A stretch of DNA of 64,000 nt, from contig OX597833.1 of assembly GCA_951406725.2 (NCBI GenBank), forward strand, positions 8,122,001-8,186,000. Reading direction: 5' to 3'. The translations under genes were made by a program, and so were the position numbers. This stretch comes from Octopus vulgaris. Lineage: Eukaryota. Shown one piece after another: positions 620 to 50,746 of the stretch; position 1 is the first letter of the stretch, and every line of letters starts with the position of its first letter. The notes under the pieces were generated by a model. That model did not search any database, was not told the origin of the DNA, and worked only from the letters and a program-made list of their open reading frames with translations.

Positions 620-2830
620 GCAGTCTGTGATTTCAGGTAACTTTACGGAATTCTTTCATCAGTAAATGCTCTTATTTAACACTCAACAACCTGACCATTA
701 ATTAATTGTAACCACCACATCACAAAATTGCCACAAAACATCATCAGAGAGAAACAAACTTACAAGTACAATCTGTAATGAAAGAGCAAAAAATCCAAGG
801 AAAACTGAAATATCTCATGAAAAAAAACCATTCAATACACTCAAAGACCATAAAAGTAACTCGGACAATTTACTTCGATGTAAGACTGATAGATACAAAA
901 AAAAATAATAATAATGACCTGAGCGTAGTTAGCAAGGCAGTCTTCAGCCAATATAAACAAAAAAATCAAACAATCCACAATTTGAAACTATGGAACAACA
1001 CAATGGCCATCTTCAAGTAGTTTAACAGCACCAAAAAGGAAAATAGTTGCAGATTCAATTAACTGAATATTGTTGACTTATCACTCATCAATCAGTGAAG
1101 ACCTTCTCCAAAAAGCTATTTACTTTAGAAATGAATACATGGATATCACAGGTCAATTTGTGGATTATTATGCATGTGAGAAGCTTGTTTTACTTCATCA
1201 ACAACACATGTTGGGTAAGAAGACTGAAGTAGGCAATCTCCATGTCGTCACCATGGGAAGTCATGAATGCATGGAAATCTGTGAGTTGGTAGGTTTGTTC
1301 CAACTGCAAAACTTAGAGGTATTGTTTTTTATGGCATCGGCCAGACCTGTAAAGGGACAATGGACTCATGCTCACAAATGATGCAAGTGGATGCTCAACA
1401 GACACCGAGGAAACAAATTGTACCATCTTTGAAAGTATTCAGTTGGAACGAGAAAACTGAAACTAATCTGACAAAAGTAAACTTCCTGTATATCACCTTT
1501 GACCTAACCTTGAGGTCATATAAGCCTTCAAAAAACCTACCGCCGCCCCTTTATATAGTTGTGAACAATTAAACCACTAACCTGAGACTAACACCTGACA
1601 CTTGGTAACAGATTGTTGATTTTATCCACAGATGGAGCCATATTCAACAAATCCACTGAATATTACTACAAGGTATGGCTGCACAGTTTCTACCCAGACA
1701 AAATCAAATATTCACCAGAAACAAACAACCTTCACCAACCATACAAAAAAGGGGAACATTACAAGCTATAATCCACCAAACAATACTGATATGAAAAAAA
1801 GGGTTGCAAAACACTGCCTCTCACTCTTTGGCAAATACTTCCCACGTGGGCACAGATTCCACCAACTGTTCAACAAGAACAACATAAAGGTAAACTTCTG
1901 CTGTATGAGAAAACTGTTCTGAATCATCACAGAGCTACAATGCAAGTATCCTACAGCAACAACTGCCACAACACAGAGGTCTGCTCCATTAAAGTTAAAT
2001 ATCACAAATGACATACAATATACTGCACTGACCTCAACCTGCTACGTAGGGCTAATAGAAAGCACGCTCAAAAGTTGTCGGCATGCCCAAAATAATCCAT
2101 TCTGCCACTGCCACCTGGAAAAATCCACAGCACTGTCTAAACACATTTGGAAATTAAAAGATACAAAATTAAACATATCACATGATACTGATAGAGCAGC
2201 AACACACAGAAACAGATTGCCACACCATCCACCAATCAGTCTCAATCCAAACTCATCTCAATTCGTTGTCATGTAACAAAATTTCTGCGAACTAATTCCA
2301 AAGTAAGACTTGCCCACCTGGATTACAAACACCACCAACAACACCAGGTAATCAACATTAAAACAGAACAACCTCCCAACACCTGAAAGAAGGAGCATAT
2401 GACGTCACAAACATTATGAAACCTTTGATTGGCTCAAAGACAGAACTAATGCCTGACCAAAAGAGCAAACATCAACAAGTGACACACACGTGATTAACCC
2501 TGAAATATGGCTGCCAGGTGATAATTGATGGCAGAAGAATCACCTGATACTTGCCAAAGAACATCACATGACAACACAGCTAGTCATGTGATCAGCTCTA
2601 AAACAAAACTATTGGTCAATATGAGTGGACATCTCAACAGCAACAAAACTACCAGTCACAAGATTCATCATCTGACCAATCCTATTGTTAAGCATGGAAT
2701 CAATCAAAAGATGACCAACTTTCCTAAATACCTGGGAAAAAAAAGACCATTCTATTTCTATCTGAGACTCGTCAATATTCCCTGAAGTTAATTGCATGAA
2801 ACCTTTAGGTATGACCAGACAATTTGGTCC
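620..2830 (+). mobile_element. decayed Penelope-like retroelement (RT + C-terminal GIY-YIG; Naiad-like)
   Basis: Frameshifted remnants: IVD-x-SISEDLLQKAI (RT motif A), VTMGSHECMEICELVGLF (motif B), L*RDNG (YRDD remnant near 1348), VNFLYITFDL, YNPP...LFNKNNIKVNFCCM, YVGLIE...KSTALSKHIWKLKD (GIY-YIG). A decayed hammerhead lies at the 3' end (about 2782-2815). Boundaries approximate. Confidence 0.85.
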
Positions 2831-13037: not shown

Positions 13038-16000
13038 TACATATTCTACACTATAACAACACTACTGTAATAAAAAAGAAACAACAAAAGAACAGCCTGC
13101 TTGTGAAATTAATGTGTAAGTGGCTGAGTATTCCAGAGACATGCATACCCTTAATGTAGTTCTCAGGGAGATTCAGCATGACATAGAATGTGATAAGGTT
13201 GGCCCTTTTTTTAATTACAGATGCAGCTCATTTTTGCCAGGTGAGTGGACTGGAAGTGACGTGAAATAAAGAGTCTTTTGCAGAGACACAAGGTGCTGCC
13301 AGGAATTGAACTCATGGACTGTGAGTTGCATGTCTTCAGTTGTATCACAGCACAACAAGCAACATCACATCACATCAACACCCTACCTCACAACTACAGA
13401 ACATCACATCAGAGCCATGCCATACCACAACTCCACACCACCACCACCACCACTGCAACATACCTCAATACACCCCACCCCAACAACTCACCATACCACA
13501 TAACCCAACACTGCACCACCCACCCCCCATTAGAATATCTTGAGTTCATAATCTGTTTTTACTTACAATTTTACATTCTTTAAATCTCTTTTGGAGACTG
13601 GATCTAAGACCCAGGAGACCAGAACCATGGATATTGTAAAGACACAGGCCAAACCTGCAGAGAAGAACACAAGAGAATTAGTTAATCACACACTGGAGGA
13701 GTGGGGGTCACATGTGGCTGGATTAGGACAGGAGAGGTTTGGAGGTCTTATCGAATATTGGTAAAGTGTTGGTAAAGATAAGAAGGGTACATGGTGTGCT
13801 ATGTGAAGGGAGGGAGTGAAAAAGTAGGGGTGAGGATCCCTTAGGGAGACGTGAATGGAAGGAATAGAAGTTTGGAGAGTTATTAGGGATGAGTGTAGGA
13901 AGAGGAATGCGGGATGGAATAATGGTTTCAAATTTTGCTACAAGGGCAACTATTTTGGGGGAGAGGGTATGTCAATTACATCGACCCCAGTCTTCAACTG
14001 GTACTTGATTTATCAACCTTGAAAGGATGAAAGGTAAAGTCAACCTCAGCAGAATTTGAACTCAGAACATAGTGACAGGCAAAAAACCACAAAGCATTTC
14101 GCCTGGTCTACTAACAAGTCTGCCAGCTCGCCACCTTGAGGGGAATGGAGGTACAACAATGATGATGAGGACGCCGATGCCAACGACAACAACAACAACA
14201 ATCCTTTCTACTATAGGCACAAGGCCTGAAATTTGGGGGAGGGGGATAGTTGATTTCATTGATTCCCAGTGTTTCACTGGTACTTAATTTATCGACCCCA
14301 AAAGGATGAAAGGTAAAGGCGACCATAGCGGAATTTGAACTCAGAACATAGCGACAAGTGAAATATTGCTAAGCATTTTGCCTGGGGCACTAACAATTCT
14401 GCCAGCTCACCACCTTAATAACAATAATAATAATAATAATAATAACAATAATAATAATAATAATAATAAAAACTATGATGATAATTTTTAGTGGTAAAAG
14501 GGAGAGTAAAGTGATACAGGTTGCAAGGAAGTAGAGACACAGCAGAGATACAGTAGAGATATAGAGCAGATGTAGAGTAGAGAAAGAGTAGACGAAATAA
14601 AGACACCATTGCAAATGCATATAAAAGATAGCAGCACGATAGATATAGAAATATTATAGAAACAGAGTAGAGATAGACAGACAGACAGACAGCAAGATAG
14701 AATGCCACAGAGTTAGGTAAGCTAAATAGATTAGACATAGAGACAAGAGAGTTATGTAGCAAGAAACATAGGCTTTGAGGGCAGAGTTAAAAAGCAAGCT
14801 GTGTGCTCTTAAAAGCACATCTGCTTCTTCTAGTATTACAATCCGGTTTGTGGCTGTTGTATGTATGTGGGGTGGGCATATTAGAGTTGAACATTCAGGA
14901 AATAATAACAGGAAGTTGGAAACAAGTTTTTGGTTCTATCTGATTCTCTGTCTGAAGAATTTCTGATAGGAAATTTCTTACCTGTCTATAAAACAGGTAA
15001 ATCTTTGTGGTTCCTATTAGTAAATGAAACATGTGTAATGGGGAATAAATAATTCCTGAAACAAAATTTAAAAACTTCCTGTTTTGATAGAAAGACAATT
15101 AGTAAGCAATATAAAGATTTAGACAATTAACTAAAAAGATAGGTACATAGATAGGCGCAGGAGTGGCTGTGAGGTAAGTAGCTTGCTAACCAACCACATG
15201 GTTCCAGGTTCAGTCCCACTGCATGGCATCTTGGGCAAGTGTCTTCTGCTATAGCCCCGGGCCAACCAATGCCTTGTGAGTGGATTTGGTAGACGGAAAC
15301 TGAAAGAAGCCTGTCGTATATATGTATATATATATATACATGTATGTGTGTGTTTGTGTGTCTGTGTTTGTCCCCCTAGCATTGCTTGACAACTGATGCT
15401 GGTATGTTTACGTCTCCATCACTCAGCGATTCGGCAAAAGAGACCAATAGAATAAGTACTGGGCTTATAAAGAATAAGTCCCGGGGTCGATTTGCTCGAC
15501 TGAAGGCGGTGCTCCAGCATGGCCGCAGTTAAATGACTGAAACAAGTAAAAGAGTAAAAGAGTATATGGCTAGCTAATCAGACAGGTAGGCTGACTAACA
15601 GACAGAGACAGTTGGCTATTAAATATAGACACATAGCTAAACAGTTAATTAGACATCTAGATAGTCAGAGAGACAATTAGACAGAGCAAGAGAGAGTGTG
15701 GTCAGATGCAGAGTTAGATACCTAAATGGACATGTGGTCGCCATATTCTGTAGAGAGACAAACAGACAGAGAATGGGGGATGCAGTGAGATGAGAGGCAG
15801 GTAACCTGTAGTTTCCTTCAAGAAGAAGGAAATTATATTTTTGCGGTTGGTTTAGGGGGAAAGAAAAAAAAGACAGAGCTTAAAAATAAGTTTGAGGGAA
15901 GATGGTGGAAAATTGATACTTTCAGATGAAGTTGCTGATAAAATAGCTTTTGATGAAATAAGATAAAATGGATAACGTACCTGTATAAAAGAGGAACTGG

Positions 16001-16433: not shown

Positions 16434-19400
16434 TAGATAAACATACACGTGTATATGTATGTATACACACACACACACAGAAAAAAGAACTAGAACACAG
16501 AATAATTCTCTTTAACTTAATCCATCTGGTTCTCATCTCTCTTTTATATAAATACACACACACACACACACAGATTAACATATCAATGTTAAGGGACTCA
16601 GCAAACAACCAAAATATCGGCTGGAATTCCCTTCTTCCTGTCAGGTGTAAAACCCCAGGACCGGCTTTCCCACCCATTAGGGCTGGTGTGATGAACACAT
16701 CAGGACAGGCTGGGTAAATGTGCTGTGGGGGGTAGAAGAGCAAAATGGAGGCGAGTCTCAGCCAGACCCCTCACAGGTACAAATTCTTTTGGGGTGGGTA
16801 ACAGTGTTAAAGTGAGTGGAGTAGGGATATTGGCAGAGAGAGAGAGAGAGAGAGAAAGATAGAGAGCATCACACAGCTGTAGTGTATCCTCCTTATATCA
16901 CTTGTACAACTACAACAGCTCCTGCTCCTCTCAAGTACCAGGTTGTGTAGCCTCTACATCCATGCCCTCCTCTTGTCATTCTTATTTAGTCTCACCATCA
17001 GAGTCCCTCATTAAACACTTCTTCTAGAACATTCTGTTCCCACCATTGTCTATGTTAACTGCAGTTCAAGCATCCTCCAGTGCCCTCTGCTGGTCTATAA
17101 ATATAATAGTTTTTTCTTTAATTAATTATGTTTTACTTTATTTTCATGCCCCCCACCCCAAAAAAAAACTCAGGTTCTGGATCTGGTTGAGAGCCAGTGG
17201 TTTATATTCTTTCCAGTTAAACACCACCCCACAACCTCCTTTCCTCCCCTCAGTCTGGTGGGGAGAGGGATGCATGTAGAAAGCCATGGGCAGCGTCCCT
17301 CTAATTTTGATCCCAGAATGTTGCTATAGTAACTGGGTGGTTGAGGCAGGAGGAAACAAAGTCAATTGAAGGTGATACTGACCAAGGGCAGTGGTGGTCC
17401 ATCCGTCGTATACAGCGTTGACATACTCGGCAGTGATGTGCTCGGGGTGGACGGTAGGTTTCACACTTCATACACACAGTCCAGCCGTTGTTCTGGATGG
17501 ACGAACCAGGGAAAGAAAGAGAGACAAACGAGAAGATTAAGATAACGATGATAACAAGCAGTAAATGAGTTTCATGGATAATTGATGAAAAAAAAATCAC
17601 ATGACAAGCTTTAAAAAGACAAAAAATAATAAAAAAAAAAGGAAAAACGTTATTTTAACGAAGCCAACACAATTAACAAACTAAAATACAGGCACCACCT
17701 AAAACAAAAAAACACCTAAAAAAAAATCAGTTTTGAAGGGAGGGGGAGAGAATTAAAATCTAATATTGCCAAAAAAAAAAATAATAATAATAATAATAAA
17801 AGGATCTTCTGAAGAAATAAAGAAATAACATTCTTGAAATATTTATTTAATTTTGAAAAACAACAAATTTCGTTAATGATAAAACAGAAAGAAAAAATGA
17901 ATAAAAGCATTTCTAAGGAATTGAAGATCATCAACAACAACAACTATGACTATTAATTATGTTGATCCTGGATCCAATTAGCAATAATTCTATACCAAGA
18001 AAATGAAGGATCTAAGAGATTCCATGGCATTTCAATGAGAAATAATAATAATAATAATAATAATACATTAAACAAACAAACAAAAATAACATTTAAGAAA
18101 TGACTAACTTTTATGAATTAAAGATTAAGAGCCAGGACCACAACAATAACAACAACAAGATTTGAAAAAAGAAAGAAGAATCTTATTTAAGTCTTAACAC
18201 AAACAACGAAGACGGTTTGGAAACATTGGTCTCAGAAGAAATCTTGTTAAACGGCTTAAAATGCAATGGAATGGTCAACAACAACAGCAACAGCAGCAAT
18301 AACAACAACAAGCTGTGGAAAGATAATGCTGAGAAATGGAGCAGTTTACAGGGTTGTATACCGAGGGACGCATTCTGCATGAAGAACTGACAGTAAAGTG
18401 GGTTCTAATGGTGTTAATGTTGAGTCAAGAAATATTTAATGAATTAAAATTATGCCTGTAGTGACGAGGAAAAAAAAAAAACTTAATAACTTTATGATTA
18501 ATTCTGGTAAAAAAGAAAGGGGAGACAACCCTGGAATTAAGGGAAATAATGCTTGATTTTTATTTAGTTTTATTAAAAGAAGCCCACTTTTTAAGAACAC
18601 ATTATCATTATTATTATTATTATTATTATCTTAGGTTAAAAGGATGAGATGAAAATTTGTCATGATATAGTTTTTCTTTTAGTTTTCTTTTTTTAGAACT
18701 GGTCGACCCATGATAGATTTTGGAGACTAATCCACCTGAATGTTGAAATTTTAAAAAAATGATATGGAAAAATAAGGCAGAAAGTATGTCAAAGGTTTAA
18801 AAAAAACTTACAATAAAGACAAACATTAAAAAAGCTGATTAAAAATACTACAAACTTATATTTATAAAAAAAAACAAAAAACTTACCGACTCCATCAATT
18901 CCACAACTTTTCTGAAACTAGAATTCCAATAGATTAACAACTCCAAGAATTCAAACTTATCTAAATTATGGTAGAGATATCCCATGATGCTTCATTATCA
19001 TCCTCATCCTCATCATTGTCATTGATGTTTGAATATGAGCACTTCTTTGCTAATGTGGGTTGGATAGGTTTGCAGTACAACAGTTGTCTGTGTGTCTTGA
19101 CATTAGACAAACATACCCTAACACACTTCAATGGTGGGACCAAACTACTTTCCCCCCTCATCTCTCTCTATCTACCTAACAATCTATGTATATATATATA
19201 TATCATTCATGATGTGAAGGGTATTTCAAGACACTTAAATATCTGTGCATTGCTCTCTTCAAACAAATCAAGAGGGTTTTATTTCTTTCATATCCCCTAG
19301 GGAACATAACATGCTAACACAAGAAATGAAAGCATATGCACTCATTGTTGCCGTATGTGCAGAACACAGCAATTGAGAAATTGCCAGTTTTCTGAATGTT

Positions 19401-25883: not shown

Positions 25884-26477
25884 TGGTGAACAGAATTATT
25901 TCATCCATTTGGTTAAACTCCCTCTGATGAGTGCTGCTGAAGTGAATCAGACGAAACCTTTTGCCCTGACGAAACAATCCTGTTCACCAACAACAAACAA
26001 TTATATAGCTCTAACACAGAGATGCATTGAGCACTTTTTACAGGAAAAGCAATAATGGAACTCTCACACACAAACACACATATATACACACATGTATATA
26101 TATAGTAAACTCTATCAAAAAACTTGAGTGAATCTGCCATGGGGAATGGAAAGTCCATCATGTCAGACTGAGGGCTTTTTCAGGGCAAAAGTTGAAAAAA
26201 GTGAAAATAATTTTACAAAGAGTTTTATATTTTCAAAGTTGCACCCATTTTTTTTTCTAACTTTGAAGATGTAAAACTCTGTTGTGTCTCATCAATTTCT
26301 CTTCTTTCAGCTTTTCTTTGAAGAAGGACTTTTGTCCAAACGTTAGGTTTGCCAATCCTCACTGCAAATTCGTTGAACTCTTTACATCAGTTTCATAAAA
26401 TAATATATTCTTGCAGATATAGACCAACACCAGTCTCTTTGGAATCTGATCATGCACACACACACACACACACACAT

Positions 26478-33769: not shown

Positions 33770-35215
33770 TGCATACATACATACATACACACACATGCAT
33801 ACATACATACATACATACATACACACACATGCATACATACATACATACATATAATCATACATACATACACACACATACATACATACATACACACATACAT
33901 ATATACATACATACATATACATACATACATACACACACACACATACATGAGGTAGGGTGGGGCAAAAGAGACACTGATCATTTTCACATCCATATTTCCA
34001 TGTTGGTATGGGTTAGATGCATGCCCTCTCCCTGCCTTTTCTACTGCTACAACAGGGGCCTCAGTCCCTTGGAGCTCTCTCTCTCCCCTCATGTCCACTT
34101 TACCCGGGTACTCCTGACTTACTCATCACTTCCTCTCACCCCACATCGAGTGTCCTGAGAAAGTTCAGTAAGGAAGCGGGAGTTGACCAAAGACGACATA
34201 TTCGGATCCATCTGAGACTATTTATGGTAATAAAGACATGGCATTGGATTCAGGGGGTGGATACAGAGAAGAAAAACTCAATGGAATCTTTAAGAATTTC
34301 TTGTGGATGGAATGAAGGATACCTTCTGCTGAATCATCATCATCATCATTGTTTAACGTCCGTTTTCTGTGCTAGCACGGGTTGGACGGTTCGACCGGGA
34401 TCTGGGAAGCCAGGGGCTGCACCAGGCTCCAGTCTGATCTGGCAGTGTTTCTACAGCTGGATGCCCTTCCTAACGCCAACCACTCAAAAGAGAGAAAGAC
34501 GTTTACAGCACCTAGGTTTCCCAAGCGGTCACCCATCTAAGTACTAACTAGGCTCGACTTTGCTTAACTTCGGTGATCGGACGAGAACCTGTGTTTTCAA
34601 AGCGATATGGCCGTAAAAAAAATGGCAACTCTGAGAATGAAACCTTCTGGATGGAATAACCATATTTTATACTCTCTGCAATAGACTATATTGAATACTG
34701 TATGGAATAAAGTATTATTTTATACTGCTTGGAACAAAACATCTCCAAACTATATAAAGTGGAAATTCTCAAAGAAATAAAACCTTGTTTGGATTAAACA
34801 CAACAATATAAATGATAAGACTAATTAGTGGAGAAATCATCAATTTTTAATACGATATTCTGTTAGGACAGGTAAGTTGACGAGCATAGGTAAGGGTTAA
34901 GAAGTTAGCTTCTTAGCTCTGGGGTTTTGGGTTCAGTCTCACTGTGCAGCCCCCTCAACAAGTGTCTTCTAACATGTGTCTCAGGCCAACCAATGCCTGG
35001 TAAGTAAACTTGGTAGATGGAATCTGTAAACAGTTTTTCATCTGTGTGTTTATACTTTTATTTCTCCAAACGCCCCAAAGCTATGAGCAGTGCCATTGTT
35101 GTTGTCATATCATCAACTCACTTTGCACTTTTGAAGAATAAGAGACTCCTTACTTGGCAAAACAGGTGTTAGCATCAGGAAGGGTAATCTAGCTGTAAAG
35201 CACTGCAGTAGTATA

Positions 35216-37347: not shown

Positions 37348-40300
37348 GACAGGCTTCTTACAGTTTCCACCTACAAAATCCACTCCCAGGGCTTTGGTCG
37401 GCCCAAGGTGCCATGCAGTAGGACTGAACCCGGAACCATGTGGTTGGGAAGCAAGTTTCATACCACACAGTCACACCTGTGCCTATGTATCATCCTCATA
37501 TACATATATATGAAGGTGAGTGGCCCAGTGGATGGGGTGTTGCACTCACAATCTAAAGATAATGGGTTTGATTCCTGGACAAGTGACAAGTTGTGCTCTT
37601 GAGCAAAACCCTTCACTTCATATTGCTCCAGTCCACCTAGCTGTAAATGGGTCACCCCGTGATGGACTAACTTACTGACTGAGTGGAATGTTGGCCTGCT
37701 CACCTAACCAGTAGAGTGGTAACATTCAAAAGCTAAAATGATGAAAGCGCATTGTGACCAGCAATGTATAACAACATTCAATAGTCTGATTGATCACAAT
37801 CATGTGAGGAAGTCACTTGACCCTGTTATCTCCCCTATTGTCCCTCTCGCGTCTGACCACTGTCCGAAGTCAGGACGCCATGATAGATCGTTAGCTCCTA
37901 CACGCATTTTTTTCTCTCCTTGTTTTTTTCTGTGTCCCTTTCTGTCGAAGAGCATAGGCTCGAAACGTAAAAGATTTTTCTATTCCTGAGCGCTATACTA
38001 ATACATTTGTTTGTTTGTACTCCACCTGCCTTCATCTTTTGTTTATTTTCGTAAACTTTCCCTTTATATATATCTATATATATACACATGTATGTATTTC
38101 TAACAACATTGATTCCCGCAGTTGATAGGAAAAGACCTCTACCATTGCTCATGGGTAAATAATTGAAAAAGGGTCTATTAGCAGTCATGGATGCCTAGCA
38201 AACAATTGCTTTGAATAATTTTAGTAGTGTGACCTGCTCCTTGATGATAATTCATGTCTCATGCAGCTTATTTTCTAAAGAATGTTGCTCATGCCTGGTC
38301 TGTTAACCATTTATTTCAGGGTAGAAATTGCTAAGAAGACCAATTTTTATTCAACAAAATGGAGCCTCATACCATACAAGCCAGATATTACCAATTTGGG
38401 AAGGAACCCACAGAATCAAATTCCTGAAAGTAGTTACTTAAATCCCTGATTTTAATCCAAGAGAACCCACAAAGAAACATCTTGAAAGAAGGGGGTGAGC
38501 AAGATTATCAAAATTAACATCACTTTTAAGCAAAGAATGGATAAACTTGGATCAGTCTATTATGGAGAATTTAATTAGATCTAGGAATCACAAGGGGAAA
38601 GGTGTGGATATGGAGTTCCTAACTAATATTGAGGCAAATTTCAACAAATTTTTGGAAAATTTTTCATGATTTAAAGTCATGTTGCATTTTATTAGACTAC
38701 AAAAAGGCTACAGCCTACCTGTATACGTGGAGAGGGGGAGAGAGAGATGAGGGGGGGGAGGTAGTTGAACTATAAATATTTGTAATGTAATAATGTAAAC
38801 AGAGGCCAGCATCCTCCCATAATGAGGATGGATTCAGAAGAAATCAGAAACGCTCTTGACATTTCTCCACCACTCACACCACCCCTCTCAGTGTGGAGGG
38901 AGAGGAGGTGGTGGTGGTGGTGGTGGTGGCGGGGGTGGGGGTGCACTTAAGAAGTGAACCTACTAATGAGTAACCAGCCAAGAAAGAAAGAAAAATACAC
39001 GAAGAAAAGCCATTCCTTCTCCAGCTGGAGTTGATAGAAGGGAAGTAGGAGGGACACACAGACATCAACAGAAAAACAAGTTGAATCAGTTTGTTCCAAA
39101 GAGGAGTGGGGGGGGGGGTCCGGGGGGGTTATATTTAGAAAGCAATGTCTGCCAGGGATGTTGTTGAGGTGGAGCAGAAGCTGATAACATAACCCCCACC
39201 GCCCACCCCTACACCCACCTGTATCTCTCGGGGGGGGGGCATTCTCAACCATAAAACACTACACAACTTCTACACTTCATCACTAACCACACCACTCTGT
39301 ATCTACCCCCTAAACTACAGCCACTACACATGTTCGTAACCTGTCCATTTGACGTTCTGCCCTCCACCCCTCCATTTACCTTATTTCCAGGAATCATCAT
39401 CGCCCCCCCCCCACACACACACACACACTTATGTATGGTACATTAGTCTACCCTAAAATACCTGATGCCCAGCTCCTCGCCCACCCTGCTGCCAACAGAG
39501 TTTCTCAACTCCTTTGATTCCTATTTTAGATGGGTCCTCAAAGATATTCAATGTTTAAAGAATCATATTTTAGGAATTGTAGAAATAAATTCTTACAATA
39601 TTTGGTGCATTGTAGAAGTCTAAGCAATTTATTGCAGATAAATTTCAACAGCAAAATCTTATGCGAACCCCTAAAGACTGTATGAACCCCAGCTCAGGAC
39701 CACGGAAATGTGGGATTTTCCACTCCCAATCAGAAGTTCCCTCAAACTCTTTTTTTGTAATTTTACCTCACAAAGGGATCTGGCTTATAATTTCTGACTG
39801 TCCATTTGCATCTAATCACCTAATTCATTTAATTAGCATTAGTGGCTAAATATTCCACAGACACGTGTACCTGTAACAAAATTTTTAGGTAGAATGAACA
39901 TAACACAGTGACAAGGTTGTACCTTTAATTACAGGTACAATGCACCTGACAGGTGTAGTGTACGTGTATTAATATATATATTTTATAAATATTAATATTG
40001 TGCTAAGGCATAGCAATGCTGATAGCCTGCTGTTAGAACTAAATCTACATCTGCTTCAGAATTAGGCATTAGACCAGTATGGAGCATGGCTTTAGTATTT
40101 ATTAAATTTCGTGTGTGTATGTATATATATATATATATATATATATACAAGGTGGTATCAAAGTGTTCCCAGATTAGTTCTGTAGCACACCAACAGATGG
40201 CACCACACGGTTGTGTGCACAGTGAACGCTAGCAGTGACTTTCCTGAGGCAGTGTGCCACGTGACATCACTGTGTTTACTTCGCAAGTTCTGAAATTTAT

Positions 40301-46566: not shown

Positions 46567-46610
<44 letters not shown>

Positions 46611-47050
46611 GAAAGAACAGAGTCGAACGACGATTTTAACAAAATTCCTTTACTCTCGACACATGTTTCGAAGGCTGCATATTCCTAATTCCAAAGGAGT
46701 AAAGGGTGCATTATGCCGCCATCTCATCAGGAAAGACAAGGAATTTATGTCAGCACCATGAAGAGCAAAAACTTTTAGATGACTGCCCACATGACTGCCC
46801 TTTATTCCTTCGGAATTAGGAATATGCAGCCTTCGAAACGTGTGTCGAGAGTAAAGGAATTTAGTTAAAATCGTCGTTCGACTCCATTCTTTCATTTATT
46901 CATAGTTATAAAAAACACACAAATTTACACACGAGAACACGGGATCCCTGCCCTTGGCATATAGCTTCAACCATGTTTTCTGACGTGAATTTGCTACCCA
47001 GGTATTGGTTAACCGAATTATCCATACTAGGATAATTCATTCACCTTCTT

Positions 47051-49905: not shown

Positions 49906-50746
49906 CATATAAGAATTTACAAAATAAATAAAGGCGAAGATGGGTGTGTACAAAACAAACAGATGTGTTAGTTTAACGCTCGGGAAGTGAGAAAGTCTTT
50001 TACGTTTCGAGCCTATGCTCTTCGTCAGAAAGGAACACAGACATAAACAGGGAGCTCCGTGCTAGCAGGGCTTGGATGGGGACTTTTATGGCCAAATGCT
50101 CTTCCTGTTGCCAACCATTACATGTTTTTCAAGTCAGAGATTTTTTTATTCTGCAGATCCTTCAAAGCACATCATTTTATGTCCAGTTTCTATGCCAACA
50201 GGGTTGCCTGGATTGTCACAGACAGAGTTAGTTCTCATTCAGGGTTATCCCCCCCCCCGCTTCCAGAGACCACATCTCATTAGCATTTTCCATACCAGCA
50301 TGGTGTGTTTAGATGAATGCCTTCCCTGACATCAACTAATTCACAGACTGAAAAGCAGAAACCCTGATGAAGCTGCTTTGTAACCATGGAGATGAAAGAG
50401 TCTTCAGGTTCCTCTAACTTGACTCTCTCTCCATCTGATCAGAGCAACATGACTAACAACAGAGGGGAGAGAGATGAAGAAGAAAGTCTTTTACGTTTCG
50501 AGCCAATGCTCTTCGACAGAAAGGAACACAGAGGTAAGAGAGGAGTGGGACAAGGCTGGCAACCACACGTCTGCTGGTAAGAAAGAGGGCAAGGAGCAAA
50601 GAATGCCTGGTAATGGTTTTCAAAGGGGTTTTCTTAGGATTCCATTGGTCTTCAAAAGTGCCTAAACAACTGGTTGTCATTACAATGAGTAATGTAAACC
50701 TCATGTCCTCGTTTTGCTCAAAGAGTGACAAGTCATAAAATGTCAA

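What the first reader, a model, noticed from the sequence alone, without database searches (positions are those of the whole stretch)
14890..15085. Best-preserved extended hammerhead, embedded in a rod-like fold, antisense to the gene
Seen: intact core, 9-bp stem I, 14-bp stem II capped by a second hairpin (ttacctgt/acaggtaa), and outer complementary blocks aacaggaagtt/aacttcctgtt and ttcaggaa/ttcctgaa. Wobble pairs work only on the plus strand, which fixes the polarity. Predicted cut after 15037. No RT/EN ORF is recognisable nearby. Inference: remnant of a small non-autonomous ribozyme-bearing retroelement.
Basis: partly seen in the sequence, partly recalled or inferred. Interest (0 to 1): 0.7.

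Follow-up and report, generated by a model that had tools for sequence, protein, structure and literature searches.

The report
Long-armed hammerhead repeat in octopus intron
This is one old copy of a repeat found hundreds of times in related genomes, carrying a predicted self-cutting hammerhead RNA with an unusually long arm; it is likely the leftover end of a Penelope-type jumping gene, lying backwards in an octopus intron and probably no longer active.

Summary
The hammerhead motif is real. It is a type I hammerhead on the + strand (14943-15046) with an intact core, a 9-bp helix I, a 14-bp helix II capped by an 8-bp hairpin, a 2-bp helix III with a self-complementary loop, and a predicted cut after 15037. 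No match this good arose in 1686 shuffled windows or in 120 phage loci with the same core words.

It lies antisense in an intron of an octopod ZDHHC3-like gene. Public contigs show a multi-copy repeat: 390-633 contigs per run in three organisms pile on 14937-15053. The family keeps the core and shows a C-G/A-U swap in the cap. Inverted joints, 3'-heavy cover and microsatellite flanks point to Penelope-like (PLE) retrotransposition.

The rod is overstated: the two outer blocks cross, and the hammerhead fold is not the lowest-energy one. Orthologues show no extra conservation. 'Small, non-autonomous' was not shown.

Verdict: a new variant of a known kind, a PLE/retrozyme-type hammerhead with a very long helix II.

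The parts
14783..15090 (+). Approximate extent of the repeat copy (5'-truncated or diverged upstream; ends uncertain by about 10-15 nt), GC 33.5%
   Evidence: depth above single-contig level from about 14795-14810 to about 15094. One loose end resembles 14783-14812 (22 of 29 letters, compared by eye). GAYA words drop to 1 in 14776-15071 against 16 in 14480-14775. GC.
14810..14860 (+). Upstream family block, joined to the hammerhead in other copies
   Evidence: depth 158-284 in X5 and X16, 50-59 in X10; 5 of 15 shown joints link 14841-14860 to 14937-14947
14861..14936 (+). Segment mostly seen only at this locus and its orthologues; other copies have a 25-nt spacer instead. Holds the 5' arms of both outer blocks.
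   Evidence: tables 2, 3 (depth at 14908 = orthologous contig only), 5c; some extra cover at 14870-14899
14943..14951 (+). Helix I, 5' arm
14952..14958 (+). Catalytic core C3-A9 (CUGAAGA)
   Evidence: no variant row among the 40 shown
14959..15025 (+). Long helix II: 14 bp (A10.1-U11.1 closing pair, bulge at 15021); 67 nt between A9 and G12
14978..15000 (+). Cap hairpin, 8 bp, 7-nt loop; C14982-G14996 here, A-U in most family depth
   Evidence: P(pair) 0.96; table 3
15026..15037 (+). G12-A14, minimal helix III (2 bp, 4-nt loop, self-complementary), U16.1 and A17; predicted cut after 15037
   Evidence: 8-bp two-copy helix III at -6.0 kcal/mol
15038..15046 (+). Helix I, 3' arm (G15042 is T in most family depth)
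15011..15044 (+). Competing hairpin (15011-15019/15036-15044) that covers the cut site and excludes the hammerhead fold
   Evidence: P 0.43-0.77 at 37 C; in the MFE folds
15047..15090 (+). 3' tail, diverged from most family copies after 15053
   Evidence: loose ends behind 15053 in 33-58 contigs per DNA run; one contig aligns to 15089
13665..15978 (-). Host intron of a ZDHHC3-like palmitoyltransferase gene (exons 16041-15979 and about 13664-13566); the hammerhead is antisense to it
   Evidence: tblastn of octopod homologues; splice sites

Best explanation
This is one old copy of a multi-copy octopod repeat that carries a type I hammerhead motif with a very long helix II, and it is likely the 5'-truncated 3' end (pseudo-LTR) of a Penelope-like retroelement or of a derivative moved by one. 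In active copies the RNA would fold the hammerhead and cut itself after the A at 15037, likely as a two-copy ribozyme because helix III is only 2 bp and self-complementary (inferred from known PLE and retrozyme hammerheads). A PLE reverse transcriptase/endonuclease would then have pasted a truncated copy into a decayed GATA/GACA tract in this intron (inferred). This copy is predicted to be silent or weak: it is single, antisense to the host transcript, and its fold is outcompeted by a hairpin over the cut site. Shown: the motif, the multi-copy family, the repeat boundaries, the shared insertion. Inferred: cleavage, dimer action, PLE mobilisation.
For: Motif beyond chance. Four of 24 listed runs were laid: 594, 390 and 633 contigs in three DNA-type runs of three organisms, and 13 in one RNA-guessed run. 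They pile on 14937-15053 while the flanks have one contig (summed depth at 15020-15034: 12,896, 6,157, 18,705, against 4.84, 13.1, 8.9 in the left flank; the tool warns this is not a copy number). No variant row among the 40 shown falls in 14943-14971 or 15022-15041 (28 weaker rows hidden). Changes concentrate in the cap loop and spacers. 14982 C>A (92, 83, 95% of depth) with 14996 G>T (89, 77, 88%) keeps a cap pair. Cover is about 3.5-5 times deeper on the 3' half than the 5' half and lowest upstream. 6 of 15 shown joints are between opposite strands; 5'-truncation and inverted copies are PLE marks (PMC8557442, section 6 read). GAYA-rich flanks on both sides. A second long-helix-II hammerhead with the same helix III sits at 46730-46658 in an inverted structure between (TA)n tracts. 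Small palindromic helix III and mostly single dispersed copies are described for PLE hammerheads (PMC4209133, parts 1-2 read). PLEs make up 6.83% of O. vulgaris in 190 families (PMC13282606 supplement row).
Against: No RT or GIY-YIG sequence was linked to the family: no genome is held, no Pfam hit nearby, and our words were not found in matching context in the published octopus Naiad and Hydra consensus sequences (exact-word search). It lacks two marks of minimal PLE hammerheads: the extra base between 9 and 10.1, and the G10.1-C11.1 pair. Opposite-strand joints at 80% likeness can come from the element's own self-complementarity, and the 3'-heavy depth can reflect the identity cut-off. The cap covariation is one pair, not shown on single contigs; in run X8, A at 14982 is 100% but T at 14996 only 19%. 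12 joints and 1683 pieces were not shown. No cleavage data.
Confidence: 0.68

Rival explanations
1. A stray monomer of a non-LTR retrozyme: a short non-coding unit (about 300 nt) kept elsewhere in tandem arrays, cut by its hammerheads into monomers, circularised and re-inserted by a borrowed reverse transcriptase. This is close to the first reader's idea and to the best explanation, since retrozymes are proposed to derive from PLE pseudo-LTRs.
For: About 300-bp extent, 33.5% GC, no ORF. 2-bp helix III with a tetraloop as in invertebrate retrozymes, and mussel retrozyme hammerheads lack the usual loop contacts (PMC7229834, parts 2-3 read). Solo monomers are common (10.64898/2026.07.22.740005, parts 1-3 read). 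A rod containing the hammerhead is within 3.2 kcal/mol of the MFE.
Against: No tandem copy at this locus. None of the 15 shown joints runs from the 3' end back to the start; the one back-joint spans 49 nt. Loose ends before 14937-14947 are mixed (agreement 0.45-0.56), not one shared upstream unit. No target duplication found.
Confidence: 0.22
2. A copy kept by the host: an antisense or intronic ribozyme or structured element that regulates the ZDHHC3-like gene.
For: Core intact although the insertion is shared by organisms C, D and E (records 17/24, 1, 9). The locus is present in one RNA-guessed run (record 25, 14705-14921, no differences).
Against: Organism D's orthologue differs by 12 letters and 2 gaps in 266 nt and stops aligning at 14970, inside helix II, with 33 letters left over. 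The host transcript carries the complement, which has no core. The fold is disfavoured with flanks.
Confidence: 0.04
3. A repeated fold-back or MITE-like DNA element whose inverted repeats mimic a hammerhead by chance.
For: Nested inverted repeats and recurring GGAA/TTCC words; both strands fold about equally well; no Rfam hit.
Against: All core bases sit in register between the helices; 0 of 1686 shuffles and 0 of 120 phage controls. G-U pairs work on one strand only. An unrelated second family (alignment score 24; 122 of 500 shuffles as high) has the same core and helix III. No terminal inverted repeats at the repeat's ends.
Confidence: 0.05

Closest known systems
Hammerheads of Penelope-like elements: minimal HHRs and small-palindromic-helix-III variants (Cervera and De la Pena 2014, PMC4209133)
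   Same: Type I order, intact core, tiny self-complementary helix III, enlarged helix II, many dispersed single copies, no clear loop 1-loop 2 contact
   Different: Helix II is 14 bp plus an 8-bp cap (67 nt) against 6-8 bp; helix I 9 bp against 2-5; no extra base after A9; A-U instead of G10.1-C11.1; no link to an RT/EN frame shown
PLE hammerheads listed in Craig et al. 2021 file S2 (PMC8557442), including Hydra-1_oBim from Octopus bimaculoides and PLE-X1_sMoe
   Same: An octopus PLE with a hammerhead is already reported; PLE-X1_sMoe has a 9-bp helix II with a 35-nt loop, a precedent for long helix II
   Different: Different sequence; Hydra-1_oBim has a 7-bp helix II with an 8-nt loop and a 4-bp helix III; ours spans 67 nt with a second hairpin
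Non-LTR retrozymes of animals (Cervera and De la Pena 2020, PMC7229834; Li et al. 2026 preprint 10.64898/2026.07.22.740005)
   Same: Type I hammerhead, low GC, no ORF, a few hundred bases, 2-bp helix III, many copies
   Different: No tandem array here, no circular RNA shown, helix II far longer than the canonical 4 bp

Membership tests
Type I hammerhead ribozyme | Conserved core C3-U4-G5-A6-N7-G8-A9, G12-A13-A14, A15.1-U16.1, H17 | tested here: met
   no shown family variant in the core
Type I hammerhead ribozyme | Three helices around the core, helix I open-ended | tested here: met
   9 bp, 14 bp and 2 bp; beyond chance; not the MFE fold
Type I hammerhead ribozyme | Match to a curated Rfam hammerhead model | tested here: not met
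   no hit at gathering score or at E<=10; the long helix II likely explains this (inference)
Type I hammerhead ribozyme | Self-cleavage after H17 | not testable with these tools
   contigs cannot show RNA ends
Canonical metazoan type I HHR | Helix I about 6 bp and helix II 4 bp with loop 1-loop 2 contact; G10.1-C11.1 | tested here: not met
   helix II 14 bp plus cap; A10.1-U11.1; definition from PMC4209133
PLE hammerhead | Absent or small palindromic helix III suited to dimers | tested here: met
   15029-15036 pairs with a second copy over 8 bp, -6.0 kcal/mol
PLE hammerhead | Extra base between 9 and 10.1, helix II 6-8 bp (minimal type) | tested here: not met
   the motif at 50028 in this window does have them
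PLE hammerhead | Many dispersed, mostly single copies | tested here: met
   390-633 contigs per DNA-type run; single in this window; genomic dispersion itself not mapped
PLE hammerhead | 5' truncation, adjacent inverted copies, microsatellite targets | tested here: inconclusive
   3'-heavy cover, 6 of 15 shown joints inverted, GAYA-rich flanks; each has another possible cause
PLE hammerhead | Lies in the pseudo-LTR of an RT plus GIY-YIG element | not testable with these tools
   no genome held; none at this locus
Non-LTR retrozyme | Tandem repeats of 150-450 bp, each with a hammerhead | tested here: inconclusive
   not at this locus; no end-to-start joint among 15 shown, 12 hidden; arrays elsewhere not testable
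Non-LTR retrozyme | Non-coding, GC below 50% | tested here: met
   (this copy only)
Non-LTR retrozyme | Abundant linear and circular RNA | not testable with these tools
   only contigs of an RNA-guessed run
Naiad PLE (octopus consensus sequences) | Sequence match to Naiad_Obim, Naiad_Ovul or Naiad_Omin | tested here: not met
   exact-word text search of the supplement, + strand words only, line breaks can hide hits

The most novel reading that the evidence does not exclude
Octopod genomes hold at least two unrelated high-copy families of an overlooked hammerhead form. Its helix II is a rod of 20 or more base pairs, and its 3' strand can switch to a hairpin over the cut site. These families are small stand-alone ribozyme retroelements that make circular RNA and use the switch to cut only while being transcribed or as dimers. 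A descriptor with a 7-17 nt spacer, like the core search of PMC8557442, would miss them, so some PLE clades said to lack hammerheads may carry this form.
Probability: 0.15. Interest if true: 0.65.

Novelty: new variant of a known kind. Interest (0 to 1): 0.38.

Why it matters
The locus itself is probably a neutral relic. The family matters modestly. It shows a hammerhead form that Rfam did not detect here and that short-spacer descriptors would miss, present in hundreds of contigs in three octopod organisms, with a second family in the same 64 kb. That suggests ribozyme counts in cephalopods and in PLE clades are too low. It also gives a cheap test of how a hammerhead works without the usual loop-loop contact. 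In the family, a bulge (15021) and a U-U mismatch (14947/15042) each sit four pairs from the core and could supply that contact (speculative). No paper describing this family was found in searches; most subscription papers and Repbase were not searchable.

Tried and rejected
Own genome not held. Pattern scans found no copies in metagenome contigs or prokaryotic genomes. The 120 phage matches to a loose core pattern were chance and served as a control. Rfam: no hammerhead.

Expression: no RNA holder on record listed. The RNA-guessed run X8 gave 13 contigs, strand unknown, so nothing is concluded.

The idea that this is the missing Naiad hammerhead was not supported by exact-word searches. Repeat-annotation supplements held none of the three sequence words searched; the O. 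vulgaris consensus library is on Zenodo and could not be seen, and it may already hold this family.

I expected that unpairing 15042 (to mimic the family) would favour the hammerhead. It did not: P(helix I) fell to 0.01 and the competing hairpin stayed (an approximation on the unchanged sequence). In one search the 8-bp outer block was off by one; one search corrects it.

The 11-bp outer block is only modestly above chance (18 of 1717 window positions; 7 of 3000 shuffles). No target duplication. No inverted copy of the 3' end at this locus beyond 11-16 nt. Decayed frames at 700-2300 looked PLE-like from recall, but Pfam, homologue and phmmer searches gave no support. The search on tertiary contacts returned nothing, so remarks on 10.1-11.1 effects on rate are left out. 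Earlier scan findings: nothing by sequence or place.

Full report
Observation. The sequence holds a type I hammerhead on the + strand: helix I 14943-14951/15038-15046 (9 bp, three G-U), core CUGAAGA at 14952-14958, helix II 14959-14972/15011-15025 (14 bp, one bulge, closing pair A-U), a cap hairpin 14978-14985/14993-15000 (8 bp), GAAA at 15026-15029, a 2-bp helix III with a 4-nt loop, and U-A at 15036-15037. It was the only hit of a strict descriptor in the window. With one bulge allowed (chosen after seeing the motif), 0 of 1686 block-shuffled windows gave helices of at least 6 and 8 bp. As an outside control, 0 of 120 phage loci with the same core words (of about 150 in the collection) formed both helices of 4 bp or more. 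The bare core pattern alone is not above chance (12 matches against a mean of 6.7). Rfam finds no hammerhead.

The two outer blocks cross and are alternatives (P 0.55 and 0.37). A rod holding the hammerhead inside the 11-bp block is 3.2 kcal/mol above the MFE of 14890-15085; the hammerhead alone is 1.6-2.2 above its MFE. A hairpin 15011-15019/15036-15044 competes for the same strands and covers the cut site; P(helix I) is 0.16 for 14937-15053 and 0.01 with flanks. Both strands fold about equally well.

Setting. Octopod ZDHHC3-like proteins map exons on the - strand, with 16041-15979 and about 13664-13566 flanking the motif. The hammerhead is therefore antisense in an intron, and the host pre-mRNA carries its complement. 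No Pfam domain is found in six read-through frames of 14480-15102. There is no second copy or tandem unit in the window.

It is a repeat. No genome is held, so I laid 4 of 24 listed public runs on 14705-15145 at 80% likeness. 594, 390 and 633 contigs from organisms C, D and E, and 13 from an RNA-guessed run of organism A, pile on 14937-15053, almost exactly the hammerhead; the flanks have one contig each. A weaker block at 14810-14860 is joined to the hammerhead in 5 of 15 shown joints. Family likeness fades at about 14783 and 15090. GAYA words are rare between 14776 and 15071 (1) and common on both sides (16 in 14480-14775, 4 in 15072-15145), so the copy appears to interrupt a decayed microsatellite. 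The tool warns that depth is no copy number; hundreds of distinct contigs per run is the safe statement.

Variation in the family (40 rows shown, 28 weaker rows hidden). No shown row falls in 14943-14971 or 15022-15041, which hold the core. 14982 C>A (92, 83, 95% of depth in the DNA-type runs) with 14996 G>T (89, 77, 88%) swaps a C-G pair of the cap for A-U, while the cap loop changes freely. This is one pair, linkage on single contigs is not shown, and in X8 the two changes do not go together (100% against 19%). 14972 A>G (21-23%) fits a C at 15011 in the loose-end consensus, and 14975 T>A and 14976 T>C would pair with 15008 and 15007, so some copies may have a still longer helix II (read by eye, unlinked). 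15021 T>C (76-85%) changes only the bulge. 15042 G>T (86-89%) makes a U-U mismatch in helix I, so this copy's unbroken helix I is not the family norm.

Age. Contigs crossing from unique flank into the element exist in C (records 17 and 24; 2 and 3 differences), D (record 1; 12 differences and 2 gaps in 266 nt) and E (record 9, to 14842). The insertion is thus shared and old. D's contig stops aligning at 14970 with 33 letters left over, which is unexplained but gives no sign that the locus is conserved. A PLE expansion at about 56 million years is reported for O. vulgaris (PMC13282606, passages).

Mechanism, inferred. Cover is deepest on the 3' half, lower on the 5' half and lowest upstream; 6 of 15 shown joints join opposite strands; loose ends before the hammerhead are mixed. 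5'-truncation, adjacent inverted copies and microsatellite targets are PLE marks (PMC8557442, section 6 and passages). Each sign has another possible cause (identity cut-off, self-complementarity). A second motif in the window strengthens the reading: at 46730-46658 (- strand) an unrelated hammerhead has the same helix III and 54 nt between A9 and G12, inside an inverted structure between (TA)n tracts. Helix III of both can pair with a second copy over 8 bp, as expected for the two-copy ribozymes of PLEs and retrozymes (PMC4209133 parts 1-2; PMC7229834 parts 2-3 and passages). In a lizard PLE the hammerhead cleaves but was not needed for insertion in vitro (PMC11167929, passages), so its role in the cycle is open. 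I put 0.68 on a PLE end or PLE-moved derivative, 0.22 on a retrozyme monomer (proposed to derive from PLE ends; preprint 10.64898/2026.07.22.740005, parts 1-3), 0.04 on host use and 0.05 on chance mimicry.

Comparison and novelty. It works like a PLE or retrozyme type I hammerhead. It fails the canonical geometry and two marks of the minimal PLE type, and membership of a PLE could not be tested. An octopus PLE hammerhead (Hydra-1_oBim) and a long-helix-II PLE hammerhead (PLE-X1_sMoe) are already listed (PMC8557442 supplement parts 1-2). Exact-word searches did not place our family in the octopus Naiad or Hydra consensus sequences. Verdict: a new variant of a known kind, interest 0.38.

Noticed in passing
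window 46594-46910: Second long-helix-II type I hammerhead on the - strand (core 46730, predicted cut after 46658). Helix I is 5 bp plus a 2x2 loop plus 9 bp. It sits in a 79% inverted structure between (TA)n tracts, a PLE-like insertion, and folds better than the reported one (helices I and II in the centroid).
   Followed up: partly
window 50001-50028 (-), 37916-38073 (+), 50481-50532 (-): Minimal PLE-type hammerhead (extra base after A9, 4-bp helix II, no loop 3) with an intact core at 50028 and two decayed copies with altered cores.
   Followed up: partly
window 25924-25960 (+): Hammerhead-like core words with a partial helix II but no valid helix III or cut site.
   Followed up: no
window 34500-34618 (-): Full-length 5S rRNA match, 108 bits, inside the host gene's long intron.
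   Followed up: no
window 700-2300 (+): Broken reading frames that look like a decayed Penelope-type RT/endonuclease from recall only; searches gave no support.
   Followed up: partly
window 13922-14458, 15146-15567: Several copies of high-copy SINE-like repeats in the same intron.
   Followed up: no
window 17227-17310 (-) and protein P0002: The database O. bimaculoides ZDHHC3 model replaces the exon at 16041-15979 with a stretch matching intronic sequence, likely a gene-model error.
   Followed up: no
window 14964-15012 in runs X5 and X10: One contig in each of two organisms has the same internal deletion of helix II, likely a shared old copy elsewhere; in X10 its depth equals that of the orthologous contig, which is unexplained.
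   Followed up: no
PMC8557442 supplement, 3' ends of Naiad_Obim and Naiad_Ovul: GAAA precedes CUGAUGA by about 20 nt near the 3' end, the order of a permuted hammerhead; not checked.
   Followed up: no
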